Source: an uncultured Gammaproteobacteria bacterium (GTDB taxonomy: Bacteria > Patescibacteriota > Microgenomatia > UBA10105 > UBA927). Taken from it: 64,000 nt of DNA. A program made the position numbers and the translations under genes. Below, piece after piece: positions 4,965-44,211 of the stretch. The stretch is taken from contig CAZVTT010000002.1 of assembly GCA_964629685.1 (NCBI GenBank), positions 51,468 to 115,467 on the forward strand. Direction: 5' to 3'. Position 1 is the stretch's first letter; each line of letters starts with the position of its first letter. The notes beneath the pieces are model-generated. The model saw nothing but the letters and a program-made list of their open reading frames with translations. It had not been told where the DNA came from and searched no databases.

Positions 4965-6419
4965 ATGTCCTTCTATAGAAAATACCGGCCCCGTGTGTTC
5001 GCGGAATTGGATAACGCGTCGGTCCGCGATACATTACATTCTTTTCTGAAAAAAGAAAAAACGGAATTGCCCCATGCTTTTTTATTCTGCGGAACCCGGG
5101 GGACAGGAAAAACCACTGCTGCGCGGTTAATTGCAAAGTTATTTACCTGTGAAAATCCCAAAAAAAGCGGAGAGCCCTGCGGCGCATGTGAAGCCTGCGT
5201 GGGTATTGCCGACGGTAACTATATAGACGTATTGGAAATAGATGCAGCCAGTAATACCGGAGTAGATAATATTCGGGATTTACGGGATAAAATAATGCTG
5301 TCTCCCAGTCGCGGGAAGTGGAAGGTATATATTATCGATGAGGTGCACATGTTATCGACAGGCGCCTTTAATGCGTTGTTGAAAACACTGGAAGAACCTC
5401 CCGGTCACGCCGTATTTATACTCGCAACTACCGACCAACATAAGGTTCCCGCTACGATTCAGTCTCGCTGTATGACTCTGGTGTTTAAGCGGCCGACGCT
5501 GGCAGAAATTTCCGGTGTGCTTAACAGGATTTCTGCTTCAGAAAAAATAGATATAACGCCGGAGGCAGTAGATTTGATTGCCAATATTGCCGATGGGTCA
5601 TTTCGGGACGCAGTGAAATTGCTTGAGCAGGTAGGATTGTCAGCCAACACGGTAACACGAACGGAAGTGGAAAACGTGTTGTCCATGAGCAACGCGGATA
5701 CTATCGTACAGTTTACGGATGCGGTATTAAAACGACAGGCAAAACAGGCATTAACACTACTGAATACTGCGGTAACGGAAGGAAAAGATTGTAAATCATT
5801 TTTAACTCAGGTACTGGCAGGGTTAGAGCAAAGACTTACCGCGCAGGTTACGGGCTCAGCCGCAACAGGTTGGGTCCTCACGGATTTAACTGATGTTATC
5901 AGAAAATTATCCCTTGCCTACGGGGAAATGAGATATACGTCTATTCCGCAGCTACCCATAGAAATAGCCGTTGTAGAATTCTGTGAAGCCGGTGCAGTGA
6001 GTAAACCGAAAGCAGTACCACCGGTATTGCCGCCGCAAAAACCGGCACCGGTTCCGTCCGCACCAGTTGCACATGCCGTTCCTGCGGCAAAATCATCCGT
6101 TCCCGCGCCGACGGTTCGGGAAGCAGTACCGGAAGTGGAAATTGCCCCTATCTCTACCGGATTGATTACGTTGGAAAAACTGCAGGAATACTGGAAGGAA
6201 ATAATAGACGCCATGAAAACGGTAAATCACTCCGCGGCCGGAATGCTCCGGTCTACTAGACCAAAAGCGGTAGCAAATGGTATAGTTACCATCGAAGCGT
6301 TTTACACGTTCCATCAGGAGCGATTGTCAGATTCAAAGGTAAAGGACGGTTTGGCAGGCACGCTTAAAAAATTGTTTGGTGAACCCGTAAAAGTGGAAGT
6401 TGTGCTCGGCAAAAAATAA
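4965..6419 (+). CDS. dnaX: DNA polymerase III subunit gamma/tau
   Basis: Walker A GTRGTGKTTAARLIAK; CGACEAC zinc module; IIDEVHML; Pro/Ala-rich linker. Confidence 0.9.
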   Translation: MSFYRKYRPRVFAELDNASVRDTLHSFLKKEKTELPHAFLFCGTRGTGKTTAARLIAKLFTCENPKKSGEPCGACEACVGIADGNYIDVLEIDAASNTGVDNIRDLRDKIMLSPSRGKWKVYIIDEVHMLSTGAFNALLKTLEEPPGHAVFILATTDQHKVPATIQSRCMTLVFKRPTLAEISGVLNRISASEKIDITPEAVDLIANIADGSFRDAVKLLEQVGLSANTVTRTEVENVLSMSNADTIVQFTDAVLKRQAKQALTLLNTAVTEGKDCKSFLTQVLAGLEQRLTAQVTGSAATGWVLTDLTDVIRKLSLAYGEMRYTSIPQLPIEIAVVEFCEAGAVSKPKAVPPVLPPQKPAPVPSAPVAHAVPAAKSSVPAPTVREAVPEVEIAPISTGLITLEKLQEYWKEIIDAMKTVNHSAAGMLRSTRPKAVANGIVTIEAFYTFHQERLSDSKVKDGLAGTLKKLFGEPVKVEVVLGKK

Positions 6420-6437
6420 TTGCCGGAAAGGAGCAGT

Positions 6438-6704
6438 ATGCAAAACCCATTTAAAGCTTTAGGAGACCTAAATTCTATGCGAAAACAAGCCCAACAGATT
6501 CAGGCGGCGCTTGAACAACAGGAGTTTGAGGTTATGGAAGGCAACGTAAAGTTGGTAATTACCGGAAACCAAAATGTAAAATCAGTAGAAATTGACGGAG
6601 TTCCTGCCGAAAACGTGAAACGGGCTTTTAATAACGCGATTAAAAAATCCCAACAGGCGGCAGCCATGAAACTTGCCGAAATGAGTAAAGGGATGGGAAT
6701 GTAA
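6438..6704 (+). CDS. ybaB: nucleoid-associated protein YbaB/EbfC
   Basis: Follows dnaX as in the canonical dnaX-ybaB arrangement; RBS aaaggag then ATG at 6438. The track's TTG at 6420 was rejected. Confidence 0.8.
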   Translation: MQNPFKALGDLNSMRKQAQQIQAALEQQEFEVMEGNVKLVITGNQNVKSVEIDGVPAENVKRAFNNAIKKSQQAAAMKLAEMSKGMGM

Positions 6705-19284: not shown

Positions 19285-19923
19285 ATGCAACGCGGTTTTA
19301 TTGATCACGTGTTTTTATTTCTGACCAAACGGACGGTAACCGTTATTCTGCTTTTTAAAATAGTCTACGGTTTGCTGTGTATTTTTTTGTTTTTGGCCTC
19401 CGTCTCAGCGTATTACCACAATCAGTGGTTTATTACCGTCTATAAATTAGCCAGACAAAGTGGTGAAGTAGCGTTGGTGTTGTATATACTCACATGTTTA
19501 CCGGGTTTGGGACGTCGTTTGGGAGTGCGTCACAAGTTATTGGCGTTACTTATGATCTTCCGTCGACAAATCGGAATACTAATGTATATGTTCGTACTGA
19601 TTCATAGTGTGATTCTCAGGTTTATTCCGGTAATATCGGACGGTCTGCCTTTACTTCCCGATAGCTGGTTTGAAATATTCGGGAGTATTGCTTCAGGAAT
19701 GTTATTCCTGTTATTTGTTACGTCGAATGATGTCAGTGTGAAGCGTCTGGGACCGTGGTGGCACAAAATTCATCAATTAACCTATATCACGATGTTTTTT
19801 ATACTACTGCATGTGGCATTTCAGGAGATAAGCCTTTGGACTATTTTGGCCGGCCTGCTGGTAGCTGCGCAGGTGGTTTCCTATGGCGTGAGCCGCATGC
19901 GAAAGCGGAATACTTCAGGGTAA
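19285..19923 (+). CDS. polytopic membrane protein with ferric-reductase-like TM domain (MsrQ/YedZ-like)
   Basis: Paired His in TM helices (MYMFVLIHSV; WHKIHQLTYITMFFILLHV), the pattern of haem-b-binding MsrQ-type domains. Confidence 0.4.
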   Translation: MQRGFIDHVFLFLTKRTVTVILLFKIVYGLLCIFLFLASVSAYYHNQWFITVYKLARQSGEVALVLYILTCLPGLGRRLGVRHKLLALLMIFRRQIGILMYMFVLIHSVILRFIPVISDGLPLLPDSWFEIFGSIASGMLFLLFVTSNDVSVKRLGPWWHKIHQLTYITMFFILLHVAFQEISLWTILAGLLVAAQVVSYGVSRMRKRNTSG

Positions 19924-19940
19924 AACACGTTTATTGTGGT

Positions 19941-21038
19941 TTAGCGTTTCCACCAATTGGCACAACCGGCAAATACGAAAGCGCTTTCCTGGCAACCGGC
20001 TCCCGATTGTCCGTTCGTGGTAACGGACAGAATGTACCATCCCGGAAGTAAAGCCCTGATGGTTTCTGCATTGCTCACATTAGTGTTTAATCCGAATGGT
20101 CCTGATATGTGCAGCGTCGTGTCGCTGGCAAATTGTCCGGTGCCATTATGAAAAGAACCTACTCTAAATGTTTCACCGCACTGTACTCCCAGACTAGAAA
20201 CCCAGCTCTGTTGTTCGTCCCGTTGAATACGGGCCTGAGTATCACGATACGCACATGATCCCGGAGCAACTGGTGGGGGCGAAATCCACGGAGTGGGAGT
20301 CGGCGTCGGTGTGGGCTTGGTTGTCACGCATTGAACGGATACGGATGCTGTCTCCGAGCAGCCAAAGCCGGACTGTCCGTTCGTATTTACCTGAAGCACA
20401 TATATGCCGTTAATTCCTGCCGTTACCGTCTCTCCATTTCGTACTGTCCGGTAAAATCCGTTCGGACCGGTTACTACGGCAGTCGTGTCTCCGGCAAATT
20501 GTCCGGTACCGTTATGGAACGATCCGACATTAAATGTTTTCTCGCATCCAACCCGGATTGCCTGAGACCATGGTGTTCGGATTGAATTCTGTACGCGGGC
20601 TTGTGTATCACGATATTGGCACTGACCAGCCGGAATGGGTGTGGGTGTTGGAGGCGGAGGTGTATTTGGACATACAACGTTTACCGTGGCGGTTTCCGAA
20701 CATGCCGGACCGTCCTGATTATTCGTCGTTACGTTAAGTGTATATGTCCCGGGGTGTTGTACGCGAACGGTATCTCCATTGCGGAAATATCCCGTAAAGT
20801 TGCCAGGGCCGGTAACCAATAGTGACGTGTCTCCGGCAAATTGTCCGGTACCGTTATGGAACGATCCGACATTAAATGTTTTCTCACATCCTACCGTAAT
20901 TGAGGGGGCCCAGGGTACAGTTATGGAATTCTGTACACGAGCTTGGGTGTTGCCATAGGAGCATGAAGCAGCCTGTACCGAATGCGGATGCGTCAGCATT
21001 GCAAATATTGTCAGTAATCCTGCCAGTATATGTTCCAT
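19941..21038 (-). CDS. secreted protein with three tandem ~114-aa Cys-containing repeats joined by Pro/Thr linkers
   Basis: Signal peptide MEHILAGLLTIFAMLTHPHSVQA. Repeats carry CEKTFNVGSFHNGTGQFAGDT...CSETA...C; linkers TPPPPTPTPIP and TPTPTPTP. Confidence 0.75.
   Translation of the reverse strand: MEHILAGLLTIFAMLTHPHSVQAASCSYGNTQARVQNSITVPWAPSITVGCEKTFNVGSFHNGTGQFAGDTSLLVTGPGNFTGYFRNGDTVRVQHPGTYTLNVTTNNQDGPACSETATVNVVCPNTPPPPTPTPIPAGQCQYRDTQARVQNSIRTPWSQAIRVGCEKTFNVGSFHNGTGQFAGDTTAVVTGPNGFYRTVRNGETVTAGINGIYVLQVNTNGQSGFGCSETASVSVQCVTTKPTPTPTPTPWISPPPVAPGSCAYRDTQARIQRDEQQSWVSSLGVQCGETFRVGSFHNGTGQFASDTTLHISGPFGLNTNVSNAETIRALLPGWYILSVTTNGQSGAGCQESAFVFAGCANWWKR
20119..20885. repeat. Intragenic tandem DNA repeats (period ~342-366 bp) with two identical 59-bp copies
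   Basis: gtgtctccggcaaattgtccggtaccgttatggaacgatccgacattaaatgttttctc is present at 20485-20543 and 20827-20885; a diverged copy lies at ~20119-20178. Confidence 0.75.
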
Positions 21039-21117
21039 TGGTACCTCCGTACGCTCACTATTATACGGGACGTGTCAATCTGGAATGAAACGGATTTTGG
21101 GATTATACTGGTTTATA

Positions 21118-21308
21118 TGAAAAAACGATTAGTCAGACCACGCAAAGGCCGTATGGTAGCAGGGGTTTGTCTGGCAGTGGCGGATTATTTTTCGGTTGAT
21201 CCCACAATCGTGCGTTTAGTTTGGGCATTCCTCTTGCTTCCGGGAGGTTTGCCGGGATTTATACCGTACGTACTGTGTTGGATTATTATCCCTGAGGAAC
21301 GGTCATAG
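21118..21308 (+). CDS. PspC-domain protein
   Basis: MKKRLVRPRKGRMVAGVCLAVADYFSVDPTIVRL (PspC N-domain); 3' end overlaps the convergent kinase gene. Confidence 0.7.
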
Positions 21309-22566
21309 AGCCATCGCGGGGGGCGAGCGGTAATAAGAGTTTAAACGAGGAGCCGACGCCCGGTTCACTTTTTTCCAAAACCAGGTCACCTTTCATAAGT
21401 AATGCCAATTTTTTGGCAATATAAAGTCCAAGTCCCGTACTCTTGGTAGTTGCCATTGATCGGGATGCGCCGATCTGTTGAAATTTGCGGAAAAGTAACC
21501 TGTGATTTTCTTCTGCAATGCCGTTCCCGGTATCGCTTACTATTGTGGCCACAAATGAGCCTTCAATTTTATGAGTGACTTCTATTCCGCCCTGATGTGT
21601 GTATTTAATGCCGTTACTTATCAGATTGGTAAGTATTTCCTGAGTTTTGTCCCGATCACCCATAACTTTGGGAATCAGTTCGGTAATCGTATGATTTATA
21701 TACAGTTTATGTTCCTTGGCTTGAATTTCCGATTTGCCGATAACTTCTTTTACTAAGAGCGATAGGTCGAACGGTTCGCGTTTTAGTTCAATGCGGCCTT
21801 GTTCTATGCGCGATACGCTGAGATAGTCGTTTACGAGCAGCATCAGATGAGCGGTGTATTCCAGGGTCTCTTTCAGCATTTCCCGGGCTTTGTCCTTTTG
21901 TAGCGTATCAAAATCGTTAACCACTAAGGAAAGCACGGCCTGAATTGTGGTAAGCGGAGAACGAAGTTCGTGTGCGGCTGCGGAAAAGAAGGCTTTCTCT
22001 TCCTCAATATCTTTAAATTCCTGGGTACCATCCCGCAGAATTAATACGATGGAACTTGTTCCGTCAGGGTTTTTTAGTGGAGTTACCGTACCGCTAAAGG
22101 GTACTTTGGTTGTTCTGTTGGTCACAAACGTCCATTTTGGAAATGTGGCTAAGTGTCCCAGTAATCCTGCCTGGATTGCATCGAACTCAGGTTCTCCTTT
22201 TTGGTTTGTAAACTGAAGGACGTCGCGATATTGTTTTTTTAAGGTGTCAACGCGGTACAATCCCGTTAATTTTTCTGCTGCCGGGTTAAATAAAGAAATT
22301 ATTCCGGACTGATCAAGTACGATGACTGCTTGTTCAATATCCCGAATAACCGTTCCCGATAGTATCTGTTCGCGGTCAGTCTGTTGTAGTGCGTCCAGAT
22401 TTTTCTGGGCCATTTTTAGTTGTGCCTCCAATTGTACGATAGTTAACGAAGATTGTTCCTGCTTTTTTTCGAGTTGGGTTGCTCGGGCAAAATGGAAAAT
22501 TACACCGGCCACAAGAACGGCGATAAGCACTACAAACAGAATGATCAGTACGGCAATAACGGTCAT
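21286..22566 (-). CDS. sensor histidine kinase (TM + PAS + HisKA + HATPase_c)
   Basis: H-box AAAHELRSPLTTIQ; N/G boxes (NLISNGIKYT; DTGNGI; GLGLYIAKK); N-terminal TM helix. No adjacent response regulator. Confidence 0.85.
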   Translation of the reverse strand: MTVIAVLIILFVVLIAVLVAGVIFHFARATQLEKKQEQSSLTIVQLEAQLKMAQKNLDALQQTDREQILSGTVIRDIEQAVIVLDQSGIISLFNPAAEKLTGLYRVDTLKKQYRDVLQFTNQKGEPEFDAIQAGLLGHLATFPKWTFVTNRTTKVPFSGTVTPLKNPDGTSSIVLILRDGTQEFKDIEEEKAFFSAAAHELRSPLTTIQAVLSLVVNDFDTLQKDKAREMLKETLEYTAHLMLLVNDYLSVSRIEQGRIELKREPFDLSLLVKEVIGKSEIQAKEHKLYINHTITELIPKVMGDRDKTQEILTNLISNGIKYTHQGGIEVTHKIEGSFVATIVSDTGNGIAEENHRLLFRKFQQIGASRSMATTKSTGLGLYIAKKLALLMKGDLVLEKSEPGVGSSFKLLLPLAPRDGSMTVPQG

Positions 22567-25076: not shown

Positions 25077-25188
25077 TACTACTTCATCCGACTTCCCGGA
25101 AGCAATACATCATCGTTACATACTGACAGGTATTTAGCCTGCCATTAGGATGGCTAGTATTCGTATAAGAATTTATTTCAAGGAACGT

Positions 25189-25977
25189 ATGAAAAAAGAT
25201 ACTCTCGCCATTCTGTTTTTAGTTGTACTGGAATTTGCTTTAATTTTTGTCCCCAATCCGCTTAAACCTCTACCGGTAACACCGGCCGCCCATTCAACCG
25301 TTTCACATTGGAGCTATGAAGGAACTACCGGTCCGGCACATTGGGGAGATATTAGTGAGGAGTATCAGACATGCAAAACCGGAACGATGCAAACTCCGAT
25401 AAACATAGATGCCTCAAATGTGATGCCTGCGTCTACGAAAGATTTTAATTTTGGCTATAAACCCAGCCCGTTACATGTTGTTAATAATGGGCATACGATT
25501 CAGGTAAACTATGCGCCGGGAAGTTTTGTAACCTTTAACGGCGGCAAGTATCAGTTAGTTCAGTTCCATTTTCATGTTCCGTCGGAACATACAATAAACG
25601 GAAAAGCCTGGCCGATGAATGTGCATCTGGTGCACAAAGACGATGCAGGTAAACTGTTAGTGGTAGAAGTATTGTTCAATGCCGGAAATAAAAATGAAGA
25701 GCTGGCCAAAATTTTCAGCCTGATGCCGAAAGACGAAGGGGAAGTAAAGGACGAGCATATACTGGTAGATGCGACCAAGCTGTTACCGGCTAAAATTTCT
25801 TATTTCCATTATGACGGTTCACTCACGACACCACCGTGTACGGAAGGTGTTTCCTGGTTTGTGATGAAACAGGCAATAGACGTGGCCGGGAGTGATATAG
25901 AGAATTTTAAATCCATATATCCCATGAATGCCCGTCCCGTTCAGCCGGTCGGAGGACGTGTAATTGAATCATTGTAA
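25189..25977 (+). CDS. alpha-class carbonic anhydrase, secreted
   Basis: Signal peptide; HWSYEG, QTPINID, zinc-ligand His triad (QFHFHVPSEH), SLTTPPCTEGVSWFV. Confidence 0.9.
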   Translation: MKKDTLAILFLVVLEFALIFVPNPLKPLPVTPAAHSTVSHWSYEGTTGPAHWGDISEEYQTCKTGTMQTPINIDASNVMPASTKDFNFGYKPSPLHVVNNGHTIQVNYAPGSFVTFNGGKYQLVQFHFHVPSEHTINGKAWPMNVHLVHKDDAGKLLVVEVLFNAGNKNEELAKIFSLMPKDEGEVKDEHILVDATKLLPAKISYFHYDGSLTTPPCTEGVSWFVMKQAIDVAGSDIENFKSIYPMNARPVQPVGGRVIESL

Positions 25978-25997: not shown

Positions 25998-27635
25998 GTG
26001 TGGGCGATAGTTTCGTCAGTTGTTCCTCTCACAACGGTAAATAGACTAACCGCCACTGATTCATGGCAGTGTAGTATTATAGTTTTACCTATGGTTGAAA
26101 GCGAAAGTACTGAACTCCCACGGCAGGAGTCCTCTGAACTTATTCTCGCCAGGTCACACGGAGCGTTTTACCGTGAGATGATTCATGGATTACTGCCGGA
26201 TTCTACTGACTCTACGGCAAAAACGCTACAGTTGGAAACGGCTATCTCAAAGTTACCTACACATCTACAACCATTGTATCGGCGAGGTGTCCATGTCCTG
26301 CAAACCGAACTACGTCATCAACAATCATGGTTATCCGAACACGCTGCAACACCGGTAGTGGACATGATGGATGCTGTTTTGGCGCAGGAAGCAGCGGAAC
26401 CACAACTCATAGAGCGGATAAAAACCGAATTTGCCGCAAAAGGAGAATATCATGAGGTATTCCCGGGAATTCCGGCAATTATAGTTCCTGCCGAAACATA
26501 TGTGACGTTAAGAGAATTAGGCGGCGTACTTGGTGCCAGTTCTGCCGTAGCATTCTTGGGAGATGAGCGTGAAGAAGTTACCTTTATGGTCGTTCGCCGG
26601 GGGATGAAAAACGGAGAAATAAATGAAGCTAAGCTGCAGCACGAAGCGCATCATATCGTTTGGCGGATGTTAAAACGCGGCGGGTTTATCCGTCCGCCGG
26701 AATACGCGGACCCGAAAATGGCGGAAGCATTTGAAAAAATGCGCGATGAATTAACTGCGTATATTGTTGAGCAGGGACAAAACGTAAATATAAAAGTTGT
26801 AGAGCCGGAATTATTAACGTATAGCCAGGATCAGGATACATTGAATCGAGCGCGTGATTCACGGGATCGACTCCATGTAATAACCGAACTAATCAAGTTG
26901 TCCGGTACCTCACCGGATATATTACTTTATCCTATCGCCTCATCAGTTTCGTTAGAGGATATGGAAGCGAAGGCAAAGTCCCTGCTTTTAGAATTACCCA
27001 GATCTGGAGACAGTATTATCGCACCAATCTATGGATTCTGGCAGTCAGATGTAGTAGTAGATAGAAAAACCTGGACTAAGCAAAGACAGGAGCGGACTAC
27101 ACCAATACTCAGAGAATATATGGCGGGTAATCCCGATATTTCGGCGGAGTCGTTTGAAGAGGCGTTTATCGGAATGTATGCGACGGAACAGTTAACCGAT
27201 ATTGCAAGGGTTCAGGAGCATATAGCGGATTTTACGCAGTTTGCGGAAGATGTTAGCGGAGTCCAAATAGATCTCCCTGCAAGGGTAAAGCAGTGGGTAG
27301 AAAGTCAATTTCCTTTTGCAGAGAGTACAAGGAATTTTTTAACACAACAAGTATTAGCCGGAGACGTTCCGGCTTTTATTCCTTTTCATACTCAGGATAG
27401 CACTGGTTTTGCAAGGAGTTTGGTACGTTCAGTTGGTTGGAGTATGGATAAACCGGGTGTGATAGACACGTTTAAAGCTATTCGTCGTAACTGTCCCGAT
27501 GTTGCTGCAGAGATAGTGCGAAATCGGGAAGAGGTATTACAACAGCTTCAGATAGACATGTCCCGTGAGATGGGAGATGTAACCGCACATGGAAGAATTG
27601 TACAGCTTGCTGCTGTTTTACAGGATATTACATAA
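25998..27635 (+). CDS. hypothetical protein (start uncertain; possible ATG at 26092)
   Basis: 545-aa ORF with no recognised motif; its stop overlaps the msrB start (ATAATG). Confidence 0.55.
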   Translation: MWAIVSSVVPLTTVNRLTATDSWQCSIIVLPMVESESTELPRQESSELILARSHGAFYREMIHGLLPDSTDSTAKTLQLETAISKLPTHLQPLYRRGVHVLQTELRHQQSWLSEHAATPVVDMMDAVLAQEAAEPQLIERIKTEFAAKGEYHEVFPGIPAIIVPAETYVTLRELGGVLGASSAVAFLGDEREEVTFMVVRRGMKNGEINEAKLQHEAHHIVWRMLKRGGFIRPPEYADPKMAEAFEKMRDELTAYIVEQGQNVNIKVVEPELLTYSQDQDTLNRARDSRDRLHVITELIKLSGTSPDILLYPIASSVSLEDMEAKAKSLLLELPRSGDSIIAPIYGFWQSDVVVDRKTWTKQRQERTTPILREYMAGNPDISAESFEEAFIGMYATEQLTDIARVQEHIADFTQFAEDVSGVQIDLPARVKQWVESQFPFAESTRNFLTQQVLAGDVPAFIPFHTQDSTGFARSLVRSVGWSMDKPGVIDTFKAIRRNCPDVAAEIVRNREEVLQQLQIDMSREMGDVTAHGRIVQLAAVLQDIT

Positions 27636-28186
27636 TGCGTACCAGACAGTATCACTATATATCTATCGTGATTTTTATTGCGATCATTATCTGTGTTGTA
27701 GGATTATGGTTGAGCTTCGTTACGCTTAACCGAAAAATTCCGCCAGTAGAGTCGCTTACCAGAACTCATATTATCTCCGGAAATTTTGATCAGGCAAAAG
27801 TGAAAACGGAAGCGGAATGGAAAGCACTGTTAACTCCGGAGCAGTATCACATTTTACGGGAAGCGGGGACGGAAATACCGTTTTCCGGTGCACTCCTTGG
27901 GGAAAAAAGGAAGGGCACATACGTTAGCGTCGGGTGTGAACAGCCGGTTTTCCGATCAGAACAGAAATTTGAATCCGGTACCGGGTGGCCCAGTTTTTGG
28001 GCACCAATACATGAGAATGCGGTTGTACTGCGGGAAGACACCAGTTTGGGGACAACACGGGTAGAAGTGCTGGATATGTGTGGCGGACATTTGGGTCATG
28101 TATTTGATGACGGTCCGGAACCTACCGGGAAACGGTATTGTATGAATTCTGCAGCACTCAGGTTTATTCCTGATGAGGGAGAGTAG
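27635..28186 (+). CDS. msrB: peptide-methionine (R)-S-oxide reductase MsrB with N-terminal membrane anchor
   Basis: GTYVSVGCEQPVF; GWPSF; catalytic RYCMNSAAL; one N-terminal TM helix. Confidence 0.9.
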   Translation: MRTRQYHYISIVIFIAIIICVVGLWLSFVTLNRKIPPVESLTRTHIISGNFDQAKVKTEAEWKALLTPEQYHILREAGTEIPFSGALLGEKRKGTYVSVGCEQPVFRSEQKFESGTGWPSFWAPIHENAVVLREDTSLGTTRVEVLDMCGGHLGHVFDDGPEPTGKRYCMNSAALRFIPDEGE

Positions 28187-38382: not shown

Positions 38383-39792
38383 TTATCTCTGCAGTGTTAA
38401 CGTTGCGGTAACCGGTTTATCCGGTCTCATAACTGCTAGCACAGCGGGCTCTGGTGAGTTGGTTAAGGCTATGTCGTACCGTGAAAGCGTCATTGCTACC
38501 AGTGCCGGTCCTTCCAGCATTGCCAACGGAGCACCTATGCAGCTCCGTGGGCCCATGCCAAATGGAATATACGTTCCCGCTTTCTGAGATTCGTTCCGAA
38601 TAAATCTCAGCGGGTTAAACTCTTCGGGATTCTGCCAATGACGATTATCATGGTGCATAATGTACGGACTTATAACAATGGTCCGTGCGATGGGGACGAT
38701 GCGGCCCTTAGTAAGTTCAAGCTGACGTGTGGCTCTACGGCTAAATACCCAAACAGGCGGATGAAGCCGCATCGCTTCCTTAAAGCACATTTTCGCCATT
38801 TCCATTCCCCTAAATTGTTCAACTGCTGGCCGTCCTGTCGCTTCGTTCGCCTGTAACCGTATTGTCTTCACGTGTTCCGGTTGGGTATGAAGTTCGTTAA
38901 TTGTCCAAATAGCGGCGTTTGCTGTTGTTTCATGACCGGCGACGAAAAATCCGACGACTTCGTCAATCATCTCCTGTCTGGTAAATTTCTCCGGGTTATC
39001 CCGGTGTGCCTGTATTAAAGATGACAATAAATTCTGTCTATCGGGGGTGGCATGTGCGAGCATGTCTTCCGCAAAAGCCCGTAGATAGGTAATACTTTCC
39101 TGGGCTTTTCTGTAACCGGAAAATGCGAAATTACGGAGTATCCAGGGAAGTCCTGCACCCCTGACGGCATCGCTATAGTATTGAAATACGGTACTTATGG
39201 CTCCCCCCAATTCTTGAGCTTGCTGCGTATTTATCCGGTAATCAAATAAGGCTTCTGCGATGATTCCCGCAGCGAGGTTATTCAAACTTTGGTGCAGATT
39301 ATCTATATGAATTGTACCGTCGGGTAAGGCAGTTCTTTCCCAGTCCGTAAACATCTCACGGGTTTGTCGTGAGACTACCTCCATGTATCCGTCAATCATG
39401 GTACGGTGAAATGCAGGTTGGGATATGGCCCTATGTATCATCCATTGATCCCCGCCGATTACTCCAAACAGATTATCGCCGTACAGTTCCCGGAAAATTC
39501 TGATATCCCGTCCGTCCCTGAGTACGTCGTCGCTATAGGTGGTTAATACTAATCTGATATCTTCGGGGTCACTCAGGAGAAATACGCGCTTAGTTGCCAG
39601 ATCAAATTCTACAAAATCTCCATACTGATCCTGTACGTTTAGCAGTTCATTATACGGATCGCGCGCTAAAGCATAACCGGTTCGGATGGTATCAATGCCC
39701 CGGATGACGGTAGTGTCACCTTCTTTAATCATAATTTTCGGCGTATTGTACCGGAACGTTGCTGATTTCACAACCATTACCGTCAGTCCCAA
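38383..39792 (-). CDS. cytochrome P450 monooxygenase
   Basis: Haem-binding FGMGPRSCIGAPLA (FxxGxRxCxG); EAMRLHPP (ExxR); AGHETT (I-helix). Confidence 0.9.
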   Translation of the reverse strand: MGLTVMVVKSATFRYNTPKIMIKEGDTTVIRGIDTIRTGYALARDPYNELLNVQDQYGDFVEFDLATKRVFLLSDPEDIRLVLTTYSDDVLRDGRDIRIFRELYGDNLFGVIGGDQWMIHRAISQPAFHRTMIDGYMEVVSRQTREMFTDWERTALPDGTIHIDNLHQSLNNLAAGIIAEALFDYRINTQQAQELGGAISTVFQYYSDAVRGAGLPWILRNFAFSGYRKAQESITYLRAFAEDMLAHATPDRQNLLSSLIQAHRDNPEKFTRQEMIDEVVGFFVAGHETTANAAIWTINELHTQPEHVKTIRLQANEATGRPAVEQFRGMEMAKMCFKEAMRLHPPVWVFSRRATRQLELTKGRIVPIARTIVISPYIMHHDNRHWQNPEEFNPLRFIRNESQKAGTYIPFGMGPRSCIGAPLAMLEGPALVAMTLSRYDIALTNSPEPAVLAVMRPDKPVTATLTLQR

Positions 39793-40986: not shown

Positions 40987-43900
40987 ATGCCTGTAGAAAG
41001 ACAATTTACTCCGGAACAAGTAAGACCTGATATTGCCACACCCCGTATTCAGGAACACTTTACGGCGTTAAGCCTAGTCCCTCCGGAAACGCCGATTGAA
41101 CGGGGTGATTTATTTACTGCAGTCACCGATACATTGCAGGTCCCGGTGAATACGTTGCAACTCCTCGAACCGTTGTGGGATAAAGCAGTTCAGGAACGGG
41201 GACGATTGGCAGATGAAACCTTTCGAAATGAATTTGTGGCTGATTTCCTGACGGAATGGACGGATGCCGTGCTGAGTGCACCGGATATTACCGTTTCCGA
41301 TAAAGCCGTTCGACTGTTTCATCATCTATCAGTTCCCGAGGATACAGGTGAACGGATTTTGGAAGTGTTGCGGAAGCCGGGAACGATTCACAAACGGAAA
41401 ACGCAGATATTGGAAGATGTTTCCCTGGTTGCTGCAGCCGTTGCGGAAAGTCAGGAACTCTCATTGCCTGTTGCACATGCATTCACGGAAATTTGCCTAC
41501 AAGTACGGCCGTTGTTGGGTCGTAAAAAAAAGGTACAGCTTGAACATGCGGTCGCGACAGTTATAGATTCATTGCGCGAAAACGCCCCGTATCAGTCAGC
41601 TGCGGTATATATGGCTTTACACGATGGCATGTACGCCCAAGACCAACAGGGAGACGTGCAGGTTGGGAAGAAAATAAACGTCCGGCGGATTTCCCGTCAA
41701 ACTCAGTTTTTACCGTACTTACTGCAAACACTTCCGCAGCGTGAATTTGACCGGGTAGGACAAGTTGTTCGGACAGCACTAACGGATAGTAAGGGTGTAA
41801 CCGCGGCAGAACTACAGGTACTCGATTCGTCACTGGCGGATATTCCACCACGCGTATTTCGGGAAATGATGGATTCGTTCACACAAACCGGCTACGTAAA
41901 GAAGAACGGCAACGAGAAGTATTCATTGACGAGTACGGGTAAGCTGCGTGATCATCTTGGATTCGAAGAAATAAACCGTGTGCAGGTAGCAAGGGAAATG
42001 CAGGATAGCGGTGCCGTAACCGGAAAAACCATAAAAAGTATACAGGATATCGTTTCCATATACCGGCACAATCGGGAAGAAATAAAGGTTTCCGAACGCC
42101 AGGTAACTGTGAGTGGAAGCGGTTACCGTATGCTGTACCTTTCCGAATTACCCATCGGAAATAAAGATGTGGATATAGAATTGGCGGCCCGGATCGTAGA
42201 TTACTATCACAGACTTCCTGCGGATCAGCGTCCTGACGTGATTGTTATCTCCGGATTACTGCAGGGAGGTTTTCAACATCGGGACAAAAACAGAAGGGGT
42301 GCTTTGGCCATTAAAAGCGTAGATGAACAGTTACAGGCTGCTCATGTATTTATGACGCACCTGCAGACCATAGGCGTGCCTATTCTTTACAACATGAGTA
42401 ATGATGATTTTGAAATTTGTCATAATTATGCACTGGAGGCAGTCCGTATGGTGGGGGCTGCTGCCGCACCGCAGTCAGACACGGATAAATCATTTATCAG
42501 TTATTGGAATATTGACCGGTTAAAGCAGACGCGTGAGTGGGATATTCATTTAAGTTTCCAGCTAAATGTCGCGTTTCCCTATATGTTGCGGTTGGGTAGA
42601 CGATTACGGTCTGCAGATGAAGTGGCGGAATTTACCGACGGTAAGCTACGGAGAGAAGAATATTTACTCCTATACGAAGCATATCGTGCCGGTGTGCGGG
42701 GTGAGCACGTCACTGCAGAACAGTTCGGCGGCGTAGTTGATTTGGGAGCGCTACCTTTTGAAGGCAGGATATTTCCGTTTGATATTGTTGATGACGTTGA
42801 TCTCACGGTAAAAACGGATAATCAAACATATGTGCACTACATTAAGCATAATTTTAATTTCGGGGATAAACCTATGTATCAAAACCCCACAGCTGCGATG
42901 GAAGCCAGCGTGGGTCAGCTTTCGGCCAGAGGTGAAACGGTACCCAATGTATTTACCATTCAGCATCAATTGCAGGGATTAGCACTGAGTACCGGAGAAT
43001 CCTGGGTGATTTCTACCCCAGGATTTCTCCGACCCGATATCCGGCAACGTGCAGCGGTGGCAAATATTCAAGGCGAGCCGATTCACCGGACGTTAAAAAC
43101 CAGAAGGTTGGAGCCGACACCCGGTGCGTTTACTGCAGAACAAACGGATGACGGTCGGACTATATTTCATGTTCTTACCGATAAATTTCTGGATAAAGCC
43201 ACAATAGAGTCGGACCGGTCTACGGTCGTATATTTTAACGACTGGCAAACGGGTTCCATGACGGCACAATCTGATTTACAGGCGAAGCTAATAGATATTG
43301 TGGCACACGAATTGTTACCAACCAGACCGGTATACCTAAATCTGATTGGCGATATGATTCAGGGAAGAAATTATCCCGGAATGGAATTGGAAAATAAAGC
43401 GTTGGGATTAGTTGAAATAGACGATCAGGCCAGATTTGTAACCGAAATGCTTTCATTGGGCCTGGCTGATGTATCTGCCGCAAACGTGGCAAATTTAAAA
43501 CGGGTAGGAATATTACCCGGTAATCATGAATGGAATTCTCAGTATGTAAAAACCGGAGCAGTCCATACCGGATATCTCTATGATTTCTTCAGATATTATT
43601 ATCAACTCCACGGCATTACGCCAAATGCCAAAAATTTACAATTCTACCGGCAATTACAGGCTGACCGGGATCATGTAAAGGCCTGGACCGGAATGGAAAC
43701 GGTTGCCGGATACGGTATGTTATCCCAGCATATTATTATCGAAAAAGGAGCTAAAGGAAATTCGGCTGGCGCGCCGGTATATCAGGCGCAAAATTTATTT
43801 ACCGGAGTCGGCTCCCTGGTTGAATCCGTAGACACGATGGTTGCCGGTCATTGGCATCATGGGCAGTTGGCTTTATTTAACGGAAAAGTCGCTACCATTG

Positions 43901-44211
43901 CCCCGGCTCTCGCCGGTTTATCCGGCTACGAATGGTTACGCGGATATCGTCCGCAATTGGGCGCACTGTTCATTCATCTGGGCGGGGGACGTGTGCCGGC
44001 GTTCGAATACCTCAGTGCGCAGGCGTTATACCGACATAGGATGCAGGGAAAATATTTTTCTGAGGAGCATCTCCGGTCACTAGGATTTAAAGATGATCGT
44101 CATTATGATCCGGCCAAGCATGGATTCATGTCGCGAAAGAGTGGGTTACAAAAGGCGTTATGGGATCTGAAAGATCATATTATCGGTGATTCCCATGCGA
44201 TTATTGCGTAA
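40987..44211 (+). CDS. large (1074-aa) uncharacterised protein with a C-terminal calcineurin-like metallophosphoesterase domain
   Basis: LIGDMIQGRNYPG (GDxxxxG), ILPGNHEWN (GNHE), VAGHWHHGQ (GHxHH). Degenerate earlier copy (DVIVISGLLQGG ... VPILYNMSNDDFEI). wHTH-like FTQTGYVKKNGNEKYSLTSTGKL. No signal peptide. Confidence 0.6.
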   Translation: MPVERQFTPEQVRPDIATPRIQEHFTALSLVPPETPIERGDLFTAVTDTLQVPVNTLQLLEPLWDKAVQERGRLADETFRNEFVADFLTEWTDAVLSAPDITVSDKAVRLFHHLSVPEDTGERILEVLRKPGTIHKRKTQILEDVSLVAAAVAESQELSLPVAHAFTEICLQVRPLLGRKKKVQLEHAVATVIDSLRENAPYQSAAVYMALHDGMYAQDQQGDVQVGKKINVRRISRQTQFLPYLLQTLPQREFDRVGQVVRTALTDSKGVTAAELQVLDSSLADIPPRVFREMMDSFTQTGYVKKNGNEKYSLTSTGKLRDHLGFEEINRVQVAREMQDSGAVTGKTIKSIQDIVSIYRHNREEIKVSERQVTVSGSGYRMLYLSELPIGNKDVDIELAARIVDYYHRLPADQRPDVIVISGLLQGGFQHRDKNRRGALAIKSVDEQLQAAHVFMTHLQTIGVPILYNMSNDDFEICHNYALEAVRMVGAAAAPQSDTDKSFISYWNIDRLKQTREWDIHLSFQLNVAFPYMLRLGRRLRSADEVAEFTDGKLRREEYLLLYEAYRAGVRGEHVTAEQFGGVVDLGALPFEGRIFPFDIVDDVDLTVKTDNQTYVHYIKHNFNFGDKPMYQNPTAAMEASVGQLSARGETVPNVFTIQHQLQGLALSTGESWVISTPGFLRPDIRQRAAVANIQGEPIHRTLKTRRLEPTPGAFTAEQTDDGRTIFHVLTDKFLDKATIESDRSTVVYFNDWQTGSMTAQSDLQAKLIDIVAHELLPTRPVYLNLIGDMIQGRNYPGMELENKALGLVEIDDQARFVTEMLSLGLADVSAANVANLKRVGILPGNHEWNSQYVKTGAVHTGYLYDFFRYYYQLHGITPNAKNLQFYRQLQADRDHVKAWTGMETVAGYGMLSQHIIIEKGAKGNSAGAPVYQAQNLFTGVGSLVESVDTMVAGHWHHGQLALFNGKVATIAPALAGLSGYEWLRGYRPQLGALFIHLGGGRVPAFEYLSAQALYRHRMQGKYFSEEHLRSLGFKDDRHYDPAKHGFMSRKSGLQKALWDLKDHIIGDSHAIIA

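What the first reader, a model, noticed from the sequence alone, without database searches (positions are those of the whole stretch)
19941..21308. Secreted triple-repeat Cys-domain protein with identical 59-bp intragenic DNA repeats, adjacent to PspC and an orphan sensor kinase
- The 365-aa protein consists of a signal peptide plus three ~114-aa repeats, each with a conserved C...GCE(K/E)TF(N/R)VGSFHNGTGQFA(G/S)DT...GCSE(T/S)A...C pattern. The repeats are joined by TPTP linkers.
- Two of the repeats share a 59-bp stretch that is 100% identical at the DNA level (20485-20543 and 20827-20885). This indicates recent duplication or ongoing gene conversion, so the protein may be a length-variable surface or adhesin-like protein.
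- I do not recognise the repeat domain.
- It sits next to a PspC-domain membrane protein whose 3' end overlaps a PAS-HisKA sensor kinase that has no partner response regulator nearby.
Basis: seen in the sequence. Interest (0 to 1): 0.5.

Follow-up and report, generated by a model that had tools for sequence, protein, structure and literature searches.

The report
Secreted triple Ig-like repeat protein
This gene in a Patescibacteria-like (candidate phyla radiation) bacterium encodes a secreted protein of three disulfide-stapled immunoglobulin-like domains from an unannotated family, an ordinary kind of bacterial surface protein; the identical DNA stretch is a short gene-conversion tract.

Summary
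Window 19941-21038 (-) encodes a 365-aa protein with a signal peptide, three ~101-aa four-Cys repeats and Pro/Thr linkers. The identical DNA block is 60 nt, not 59. PspC, the PAS-HisKA kinase and the lack of a response regulator in the window are all real.

The family is small: 366 representatives among 1.84 billion proteins. The named genomes that carry it are all Patescibacteria (Woesebacteria, Dojkabacteria/WS6). Copy number is 1-6. Relatives carry it with LPXTG anchors, PKD, DUF11, dockerin, cohesin and glycosidase-like domains.

The 60-nt identity is a gene-conversion tract between repeats 1 and 2. The 78%-identical ortholog lacks it, and the repeats are otherwise 65% identical. Close orthologs keep three copies, so length variation is not supported.

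PspC adjacency is seen only in the closest ortholog. Kinase adjacency persists only within one syntenic sub-lineage.

The likely role is an extracellular binding or adhesion module. The ligand is unknown.

The parts
19941..21038 (-). Gene for the 365-aa secreted triple-repeat protein
   Evidence: ORF. An identical protein, P0001, is in the database. A GGAGG Shine-Dalgarno lies 5 nt upstream of the ATG.
21044..21048 (-). Shine-Dalgarno GGAGG supporting ATG 21038 as the start
   Evidence: Read directly from the sequence.
20970..21038 (-). Signal peptide (aa 1-23, ending in VQA|A)
   Evidence: Predicted as a helix at aa 2-15 in the full-length model. All homologs carry an N-terminal hydrophobic leader. 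The cleavage site is inferred from the AxA rule.
20667..20969 (-). Repeat 1 (aa 24-124), an Ig-like domain with 4 Cys
   Evidence: HMM domain hit of 143 bits. Beta-sandwich in the model.
20628..20666 (-). Pro/Thr linker 1 (aa 125-137)
   Evidence: Sequence. pLDDT is below 50 for aa 125-138.
20325..20627 (-). Repeat 2 (aa 138-238), an Ig-like domain with 4 Cys
   Evidence: 133 bits. Modelled alone at pLDDT 96.1 and pTM 0.88.
20262..20324 (-). Pro/Thr linker 2 (aa 239-259)
   Evidence: Sequence. pLDDT is below 50 for aa 240-259.
19959..20261 (-). Repeat 3 (aa 260-360), an Ig-like domain with 4 Cys
   Evidence: 128 bits. Model.
19941..19958 (-). Trp-rich C-terminal tail NWWKR plus stop codon
   Evidence: Aromatic tails (WWKR, WWRR, FWWQ, DWWRD, DFWKxILQQF...) recur after the last repeat in relatives. 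Their role is not known.
20826..20885 (-). Copy A (in repeat 1) of the 60-nt exact block, encoding EKTFNVGSFHNGTGQFAGDT
20484..20543 (-). Copy B (in repeat 2) of the 60-nt exact block
21117..21308 (+). Neighbour: PspC-domain membrane protein (probably 63 aa; the longest ORF starts at 21030). Context only.
   Evidence: PF04024 E 1.3e-21, with the domain starting at residue 32 of the 92-aa ORF. The ortholog is called at 63 aa. It is absent from the syntenic locus L012.
21286..22566 (-). Neighbour: one-TM PAS-HisKA-HATPase_c histidine kinase, upstream on the same strand. Context only.
   Evidence: An ortholog (38% identity over the full length) sits directly upstream of the repeat gene in L012.

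Best explanation
The gene encodes a Sec-exported protein of a Patescibacteria-like (candidate phyla radiation, Microgenomates-type) bacterium.

After signal-peptide cleavage the protein is a flexible 'beads on a string' chain. It has three independently folded, ~100-residue immunoglobulin-like beta-sandwich domains joined by disordered Pro/Thr linkers. Each domain is stapled by two disulfides: C1-C3, nearly universal in the family, and C2-C4, optional. The domains belong to a small, so far unannotated sequence family. This family is a divergent relative of PKD-like bacterial Ig domains.

The most likely role (inferred, not shown) is a cell-surface or extracellular binding/adhesion module. The strongly conserved polar strand A (T-Q-A-R-V-Q) and the FNVGSFHNGTGQFA strand-loop would present the ligand-contacting surface.

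The 60-nt identical block is a short gene-conversion tract between repeats 1 and 2 that arose in this lineage. It is not a recent duplication and not a programmed variation device.

Adjacency to PspC is incidental. Adjacency to the kinase is lineage-level synteny.
For: Shown:
- ORF, four Cys per repeat, linkers and Shine-Dalgarno.
- No curated family reaches its cut-off.
- The single-repeat AlphaFold model has pLDDT 96.1 and eight strands.
- The full-length model has three separate sandwiches, linkers with pLDDT below 50 and pTM 0.36.
- Foldseek against PDB has no hit at E of 1e-3 or better, and the top hits are Ig-like domains.
- hhalign of the 85-unit profile against K319L-like PKD repeats gives probability 74%, E 2.9e-5, over 78 columns.
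- Sub-threshold PKD_4 hits occur in 11 of 85 units.
- Partial hits to the C-terminal half of the profile (checked in two of these proteins) fall in Big_3 and PKD repeat proteins.
- Cys pattern over 119 units: CCCC 61, C-C- 52, others 6. C2 and C4 are lost together, while C1 and C3 are both kept in 117 of 119 units.
- Extracellular usage in relatives: every one has a leader or N-terminal TM segment; P0042 ends in LPKTG + TM + basic tail; P0041 has a C-terminal TM segment. Co-occurring domains are PKD, DUF11/DUF7507, dockerin, cohesin, an Rv2525c glycosidase-like domain and BNR repeats.
- Family size and taxa: 366 representatives at E of 1e-3 or better; the named genomes are Woesebacteria, Dojkabacteria/WS6 and 'Patescibacteria group'.

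Gene conversion:
- 20 of 20 codons are identical inside the block, against 20 of 43 outside.
- The ortholog's longest intragenic exact repeat is 11 nt.
- Ortholog and window differ at synonymous sites inside the block.
- Positional orthology of repeats 1, 2 and 3 is kept.
Against: - No experiment or ligand is available, so adhesion or binding is inferred only from fold, export and domain company.
- The window protein itself has no recognisable anchor: no LPXTG, no C-terminal TM segment and no lipobox. It may be released rather than surface-bound.
- Ig-like domains also serve as inert spacers.
- The PKD relationship rests on one profile comparison with low-diversity templates and on sub-threshold Pfam hits.
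- Model coordinates could not be inspected. The disulfide pairing and the 'conserved face' are therefore inferred from covariation and strand periodicity, not measured.
- The AlphaFold database libraries could not be searched.
Confidence: 0.6

Rival explanations
1. The repeats act as a carbohydrate-binding module. They would bind a polysaccharide (host cell wall, capsule or environmental glycan) through the conserved polar and aromatic face, as CBMs and some PKD/Ig modules do next to glycosidases.
For: - Relatives place the domain beside glycosidase-like modules. P0069 has an Rv2525c_GlyHyd-like domain (E 1.5e-33) plus BNR repeats. The 1232-aa WS6 protein in L008 has an N-terminal region with an 'NEP' motif followed by two copies of the repeat and a dockerin-like C-terminus.
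- Dockerin and cohesin occur in P0061, P0079 and P0071.
- Invariant or near-invariant W21, F38, H39, F45, Q10, R12 and Q14 are residue types typical of sugar-binding faces (own knowledge).
Against: - No CBM family is matched.
- Most family members (one to three repeats alone) have no enzyme attached.
- The L008 glycosidase assignment is by eye only; Pfam found nothing there.
Confidence: 0.15
2. The protein is a passive structural or spacer component of the cell envelope (an S-layer- or wall-associated scaffold) with no specific ligand. The Ig domains would only provide length and protease resistance.
For: - Beads-on-a-string architecture with Pro/Thr linkers.
- The same domain sits between other modules in large multidomain proteins.
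Against: Spacer domains usually conserve only core residues. Here exposed polar positions of strand A (Q10, R12, Q14) and the loop N40-D48 are invariant or nearly so across 85 units at about 40% mean column identity. That argues for a functional surface.
Confidence: 0.12
3. The protein is an extracellular co-sensor for the adjacent histidine kinase. The kinase has one TM helix and essentially no extracytoplasmic domain. The secreted protein would bind a signal and report it to the kinase, as LuxP does for LuxQ or TorT for TorS.
For: - The kinase gene lies directly upstream on the same strand in the window, in L001 and in L012. In L012 the repeat protein is 46% identical, the kinase is 38% identical over its full length, and the gap is 45 nt.
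- The kinase's first 25 residues form its only hydrophobic segment. Pfam places its PAS domain at residues 74-179.
- Ser/Thr kinases lie near the gene in L015 and L018.
Against: - The three loci share wider synteny (CysRS, a 132-aa ORF, FeS-assembly protein, RecR), so adjacency may be inherited rather than selected.
- Relatives in L003, L014, L016 and L017 have no kinase nearby.
- In the window an opposite-strand PspC gene separates the two genes, so an operon is unlikely.
- No response regulator is present to complete a pathway.
Confidence: 0.06
4. The domain is a metal-binding (CopC-like) module that uses the His/Asp or Cys pairs and is linked to neighbouring redox or copper genes.
For: - Weak CopC matches occur in relatives: P0041 E 5.7e-4 and P0079 E 5.1e-4, both below the cut-off.
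- Neighbours are a ferric-reductase/MsrQ-like membrane protein in the window and, in L012, a cupredoxin, a YHS-domain regulator and a P-type ATPase.
Against: - CopC is itself an Ig-like sandwich, and the Big_3 repeat protein P0106 matches CopC much more strongly. The hit therefore reflects fold-level similarity.
- Only one His and one Asp are conserved, and there is no Met-rich site.
- The Cys co-loss pattern fits optional disulfides.
- The metal-related neighbours are not conserved across loci.
Confidence: 0.03
5. The 60-nt direct repeat is a functional recombination substrate. It would let the population switch between 2-, 3- and 4-repeat alleles, making the gene a contingency locus.
For: - The two copies are 342 nt (114 codons) apart. 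Unequal exchange between them would therefore remove or add exactly one repeat in frame.
- A 27-nt exact repeat between repeats 1 and 2 occurs at another position in L012. Exchange between these repeats therefore recurs.
Against: - No 2- or 4-repeat allele closer than 78% identity exists among 5.8 billion clustered proteins, and the exact protein is seen on one contig only.
- The other eight orthologs and relatives examined have longest intragenic exact repeats of only 10-18 nt.
- Three copies are constant in 12 orthologs.
- There is no tandem array.
Confidence: 0.04

Closest known systems
PKD-like bacterial Ig domains (Pfam PKD_4 PF18911, PKD PF00801, K319L-like_PKD PF22352; E-set superfamily)
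   Same: - Extracellular beta-sandwich of about 90-100 residues, used in tandem and next to enzymes, dockerins and anchors.
- The C-terminal 'G-x-Y-x-L-x-V-x-T...G' strand pair is shared.
- hhalign gives probability 74% over 78 columns.
- Sub-threshold PKD_4 hits occur in 11 of 85 units.
   Different: - No unit reaches the Pfam gathering score.
- The N-terminal third (C-x-Y-x-x-T-Q-A-R-V-Q...P-W) and the FNVGSFHNGTGQFA motif have no PKD counterpart.
- There are two conserved disulfides.
- The named genomes that carry it are all Patescibacteria.
Big_3 / internalin K D3-D4 Ig-like domains (PF07523, PF18981; PDB 2kpn, 4l3a)
   Same: Best sequence-profile matches in the PDB, aligning the last three strands. 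InlK_D3 is hit by 6 of 85 units.
   Different: E-values are only 0.3-0.6. hhalign against Big_3 units gives probability 31% over 33 columns only. The match is not significant.
Macroglobulin (MG) domains of complement C5/C4/C3 and alpha-2-macroglobulin, and I-set Ig domains (NCAM)
   Different: Sequence identity is 8-23% (8-11% for the MG domains), with no sequence signal. The similarity is at fold level only.
LPXTG-anchored Gram-positive surface adhesins built of tandem Ig-like repeats (MSCRAMM-type, Rib/aRib, SpaA-like)
   Same: A signal peptide followed by tandem Ig-like repeats with Pro-rich spacers. One family member (P0042) has an LPKTG sorting signal.
   Different: The window protein lacks any sorting signal. 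It uses disulfides, and no isopeptide or thioester motifs were noted. No adhesin family is matched.

Membership tests
Immunoglobulin-like beta-sandwich (E-set-type) fold | A two-sheet sandwich of 7-9 strands that superposes on known Ig, PKD or MG domains | tested here: met
Pfam PKD / PKD_4 | A score at or above the curated gathering threshold | tested here: not met
   The window protein has no PKD hit. Among the 85 units the best E-value is 2.2e-5. P0005 scores 26.3 bits against a cut-off of 27.
Pfam PKD / PKD_4 | Remote homology detectable by profile-profile comparison | tested here: inconclusive
   hhalign gives probability 73.8%, E 2.9e-5, over 78 columns against K319L-like PKD units of P0118. 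The template alignment is shallow (Neff 2.3).
Big_3 (PF07523) | A significant profile match over the whole domain | tested here: not met
   The PDB profile search gives 2kpn at E 0.31, covering the C-terminal 46 residues only. hhalign probability is 31% over 33 columns.
T9SS C-terminal sorting domain (TIGR04183) | A score at or above the cut-off, covering the CTD at the protein's C-terminus | tested here: not met
   21.7 bits against a cut-off of 23, with only 26 residues (aa 320-345) matched inside repeat 3.
Sortase (LPXTG) substrate | A C-terminal LPXTG motif, a hydrophobic helix and a basic tail | tested here: not met
   The protein ends ...GCANWWKR, five residues after the last Cys. Relative P0042 does carry LPKTG + TM + RRFR.
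Bacterial lipoprotein | A lipobox [LVI][ASTVI][GAS]C at the end of the leader | tested here: not met
   The residues before the first Cys vary among orthologs (AAS, AAA, FNT, VVT, QQA, AAQ, NTQ). That Cys is the family-invariant C1, which is also present in internal repeats.
Contingency or phase-variable repeat locus | A near-identical tandem DNA array with strain-to-strain copy-number change | tested here: not met
   TRF finds nothing. The repeats are 53-65% identical in DNA. Three copies are found in 12 orthologs. No strain variants were available.
PspC family (neighbour) | A PF04024 domain above threshold | tested here: met
   76.6 bits against a cut-off of 25. It falls below the equivalog cut-off for PspC proper: 38.5 against 104.
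Classical two-component system (neighbour kinase) | A cognate response regulator encoded nearby | tested here: not met
   phmmer with four receiver queries finds no receiver domain in the six-frame translation of the 64-kb window.

The most novel reading that the evidence does not exclude
The repeat is a Patescibacteria-specific ligand-recognition module. Its invariant polar face (T-Q-x-R-x-Q of strand A plus the GSFHNGTGQF loop) would bind a host-surface or glycan ligand needed for the episymbiotic lifestyle. In this sub-lineage the secreted protein would also serve as the missing extracellular sensor of the adjacent kinase, which has no sensor domain. The recurrent Trp-rich C-terminal tail would act as a new non-covalent envelope anchor.
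Probability: 0.08. Interest if true: 0.6.

Novelty: new member of a known kind. Interest (0 to 1): 0.3.

Why it matters
Patescibacteria (the candidate phyla radiation) are mostly uncultured and depend on contact with host cells. Little is known about their surface proteins.

This work defines a compact, confidently modelled, disulfide-stapled Ig-like domain family that Pfam and NCBIfam do not cover. Its boundaries, conserved motifs, disulfide topology and domain partners are now described. That gives a concrete candidate for attachment or binding studies and a seed for a new family model.

The gene-conversion tract is a clean small example of concerted evolution inside a repeat protein. None of this challenges current understanding. 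It is a modest annotation gain rather than a surprise.

Tried and rejected
- Tandem Repeats Finder on 19500-21700 found nothing. The repeats are too diverged at the DNA level, so this is not a DNA tandem array.
- Rfam and tRNA scans of the window found nothing. No RNA element explains the conserved 60 nt.
- The promoter and terminator scan gave no more sites than shuffled sequence. The TTGACA/TATAAT pair upstream of the gene has only a 7-nt spacer, so no promoter is claimed.
- The AFDB Foldseek library was not available.
It was repeated with 13 close units. One hit in Phocaeicola (L011, 41 residues) was not confirmed by the family HMM and was dropped.
- Lipoprotein, LPXTG and T9SS-CTD readings were each tested and rejected.
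- The CopC or metal-centre reading was rejected as fold-level similarity.
- A functional link to PspC was rejected. PspC is absent from the syntenic locus L012 and from all other contexts.
- The direction of conversion could not be determined. The outgroup P0003 repeat 1 has the same residues as the window.
- Two literature searches found nothing on this family.
- Positional orthology of the three repeats is clear only for the two closest orthologs. The age of the triplication beyond that is undetermined.
Full report
**Observation**

The ORF at 19941..21038 on the minus strand encodes 365 aa. A GGAGG Shine-Dalgarno lies 5 nt before the ATG. The protein has a hydrophobic leader ending in VQA|A. 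Three repeats follow at aa 24-124, 138-238 and 260-360. Each repeat has four cysteines at equivalent positions. The repeats are separated by the Pro/Thr linkers NTPPPPTPTPIPA and TTKPTPTPTPTPWISPPPVAP.

The exact DNA identity is 60 nt, not 59: 20484-20543 equals 20826-20885. The finding's span to 21308 also includes the neighbouring PspC gene. The apparent 9-nt overlap of the 92-aa PspC ORF with the start of the repeat gene is an artefact of taking the longest ORF. The PspC domain begins at residue 32, and the ortholog is called at 63 aa, equivalent to ATG 21117. PspC and the kinase (21286..22566, minus strand; PAS + HisKA + HATPase_c) overlap convergently by 23 nt. Four response-regulator queries found no receiver domain anywhere in the six-frame translation of the 64 kb.

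**The 60-nt block**

Repeats 1 and 2 are only 65% identical in DNA overall. Inside the block 20 of 20 codons are identical. Outside it, only 20 of the 43 codons that encode the same amino acid in both repeats are identical. I re-drew synonymous codons for the real protein from the window's codon usage 5000 times. The longest match at this offset had a median of 11 nt and a maximum of 41 nt.

The 78%-identical, fully syntenic ortholog (L001) has no intragenic exact repeat longer than 11 nt. It differs from the window at several synonymous sites inside the block. Each window repeat is closer to its positional counterpart in the ortholog (72%, 73% and 79% in DNA) than to its sister repeats (53-65%). 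The triplication is therefore old. After the two lineages split, a short tract was copied between repeats 1 and 2. This is gene conversion, not recent duplication.

Among nine other orthologs and relatives the longest exact intragenic repeats are 10-18 nt. The exception is a 27-nt repeat between repeats 1 and 2 at a different position in L012. Such exchange is therefore sporadic. The 342-nt spacing (114 codons) means an unequal exchange would be in frame, but no such allele is on record.

**The domain**

Pfam and NCBIfam give nothing above their cut-offs. The only hits are weak matches to Ig-like families and a 26-residue near-miss to the T9SS tail. An HMM built from the repeats finds 119 units in the 61 homologs.

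Several results point to a divergent PKD-like relationship:
- Scanning each of the 85 units against Pfam gives sub-threshold PKD_4 hits in 11 units and InlK_D3 hits in 6.
- In the exhaustive representative search, some giant repeat proteins match only the C-terminal half of the profile. The two checked carry Big_3 repeats (P0106) and K319L-like PKD repeats (P0118).
- hhalign of the family profile against PKD units from one such protein gives 74% probability over 78 columns. Against Big_3 units it gives 31% over 33 columns.

I therefore read the domain as a divergent PKD-like Ig domain. It is a new sequence family and not a new fold.

**Disulfides and conserved surface**

Of the 119 units, 61 have all four Cys. 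Another 52 lack exactly C2 and C4 together. C1 and C3 are both present in 117 of 119. This supports a C1-C3 disulfide present in nearly every unit, from just before strand A to the start of the last strand. It also supports an optional C2-C4 disulfide, from the loop before strand B to the end of the last strand.

Besides core positions, several polar positions are invariant or nearly so. These are T9, Q10, R12 and Q14 on strand A, and H39 through D48 in the FNVGSFHNGTGQFAxD strand-loop. This is more than a pure spacer would need, and it suggests a binding surface (inference).

**Whole protein**

The full-length model shows a leader helix (aa 2-15), three separate sandwiches and linkers with pLDDT below 50. 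Its pTM of 0.36 indicates no fixed inter-domain packing. A short Trp-rich tail (NWWKR) follows the last repeat. Comparable aromatic tails recur in many relatives. I could not assign them a role.

**Family, taxa and architectures**

The family is small. There are 366 representatives with E of 1e-3 or better, and 163 at 1e-10 or better, among 1.84 billion 50%-identity clusters. The named genomes that carry it are Candidatus Woesebacteria, Dojkabacteria/WS6 and 'Patescibacteria group' MAGs.

Copy number ranges from 1 to 6. However, 12 orthologs down to 43% identity all have three copies, and one relative has four. All members have a leader or an N-terminal TM segment. P0042 ends in LPKTG + TM + basic tail, and P0041 has a C-terminal TM segment. 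Multidomain members combine the domain with PKD, DUF11/DUF7507, dockerin, cohesin, an Rv2525c glycosidase-like domain and BNR repeats. A 1232-aa WS6 protein carries two copies between a glycosidase-like N-terminal region and a dockerin-like C-terminus. The domain is thus an extracellular module of monoderm-type surface proteins.

**Genomic context**

- The closest ortholog shares the whole neighbourhood: CysRS, a 132-aa ORF, the ferric-reductase-like protein, the repeat gene, PspC, the kinase, an Ogt-like protein, ThyA, DHFR and carbonic anhydrase.
- A 46%-identical ortholog (L012) keeps CysRS, the 132-aa ORF and an orthologous kinase (38% identity over the full length). That kinase lies directly upstream on the same strand. 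L012 has no PspC, and a cupredoxin replaces the ferric-reductase-like gene.
- Other relatives sit next to FemAB and UvrD-type helicases; a Ser/Thr kinase, Methyltransf_28 and WecG; ATP-grasp genes and MnmA; or unannotated genes.

No partner is conserved across the family. PspC adjacency is incidental. Kinase adjacency is best explained by inherited synteny, although a co-sensor relationship cannot be excluded.

**Verdict**

It is correct on secretion, on the unannotated repeat and on gene conversion. It is not supported on length variability or on a link to PspC.

The best-supported explanation is a secreted, probably envelope-associated protein of three disulfide-stapled PKD-like Ig domains, acting as an extracellular binding or adhesion module in a Patescibacteria-like bacterium. 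This is a new member of a well-known kind of protein. Interest is modest.

Noticed in passing
window 38383-39792 (-): A full-length cytochrome P450 (PF00067, E 2.9e-60). This seems unusual for a reduced Patescibacteria-type genome (own knowledge, not checked).
   Followed up: no
window 40987-44211 (+) and 25998-27635 (+): Large ORFs of 1074 aa and 545 aa with no Pfam family. A 539-aa unannotated ORF lies in the syntenic block of L012.
   Followed up: no
window 25150-25977 (+), 27635-28186 (+), 19285-19923 (+): An alpha ('eukaryotic-type') carbonic anhydrase. An MsrB (SelR) whose Pfam match starts at residue 66, leaving about 65 unmatched N-terminal residues. A ferric-reductase/MsrQ-like membrane protein convergent with the repeat gene, with 17 nt between their ends.
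   Followed up: partly
window 19944-19958 (-) and the C-termini of P0002-P0037: A recurrent Trp-rich tail after the last repeat (NWWKR, EWWKR, FWWQ, WVWWQ, DWWRD, SWFDWLKGW..., IPDFWKSILQQFMV). It is absent after internal repeats. It could be an envelope-association or sorting signal.
   Followed up: partly
L008 4684-8382 (candidate division WS6 bacterium OLB20): A 1232-aa extracellular protein. It has an N-terminal region with a glycosidase-like 'NEP' motif, two copies of the repeat, Cys-rich modules and a dockerin-like C-terminus. Pfam finds no family in it.
   Followed up: partly
L012 gene positions 109-135 and 424-450 (locus 6109-6135 and 6424-6450): A 27-nt exact repeat between repeats 1 and 2 of a 46%-identical ortholog, at a different place (QKDITDPWK) from the window's block. 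It may be an independent small conversion tract.
   Followed up: partly
L015 3228-4556 and L018 4678-5859: Ser/Thr protein kinases lie next to or near the repeat gene in two relatives, and a histidine kinase lies next to it in three others. This may be coincidence, or a hint of a link to signalling.
   Followed up: no
window 21060-21078 (-): Perfect TTGACA and TATAAT hexamers lie upstream of the repeat gene but are separated by only 7 nt, so they do not form a canonical sigma-70 promoter.
   Followed up: no
window 1-64000: No tRNA gene and no Rfam family at gathering score in 64 kb.
   Followed up: yes
L012 1-4558 and 7133-7621: In the syntenic relative, the genes beyond the kinase on one side of the repeat gene form a copper-related cluster: a P-type ATPase, DUF1573 proteins and an HTH-YHS regulator. 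A cupredoxin lies directly on the other side. The window has no such cluster at this position.
   Followed up: no
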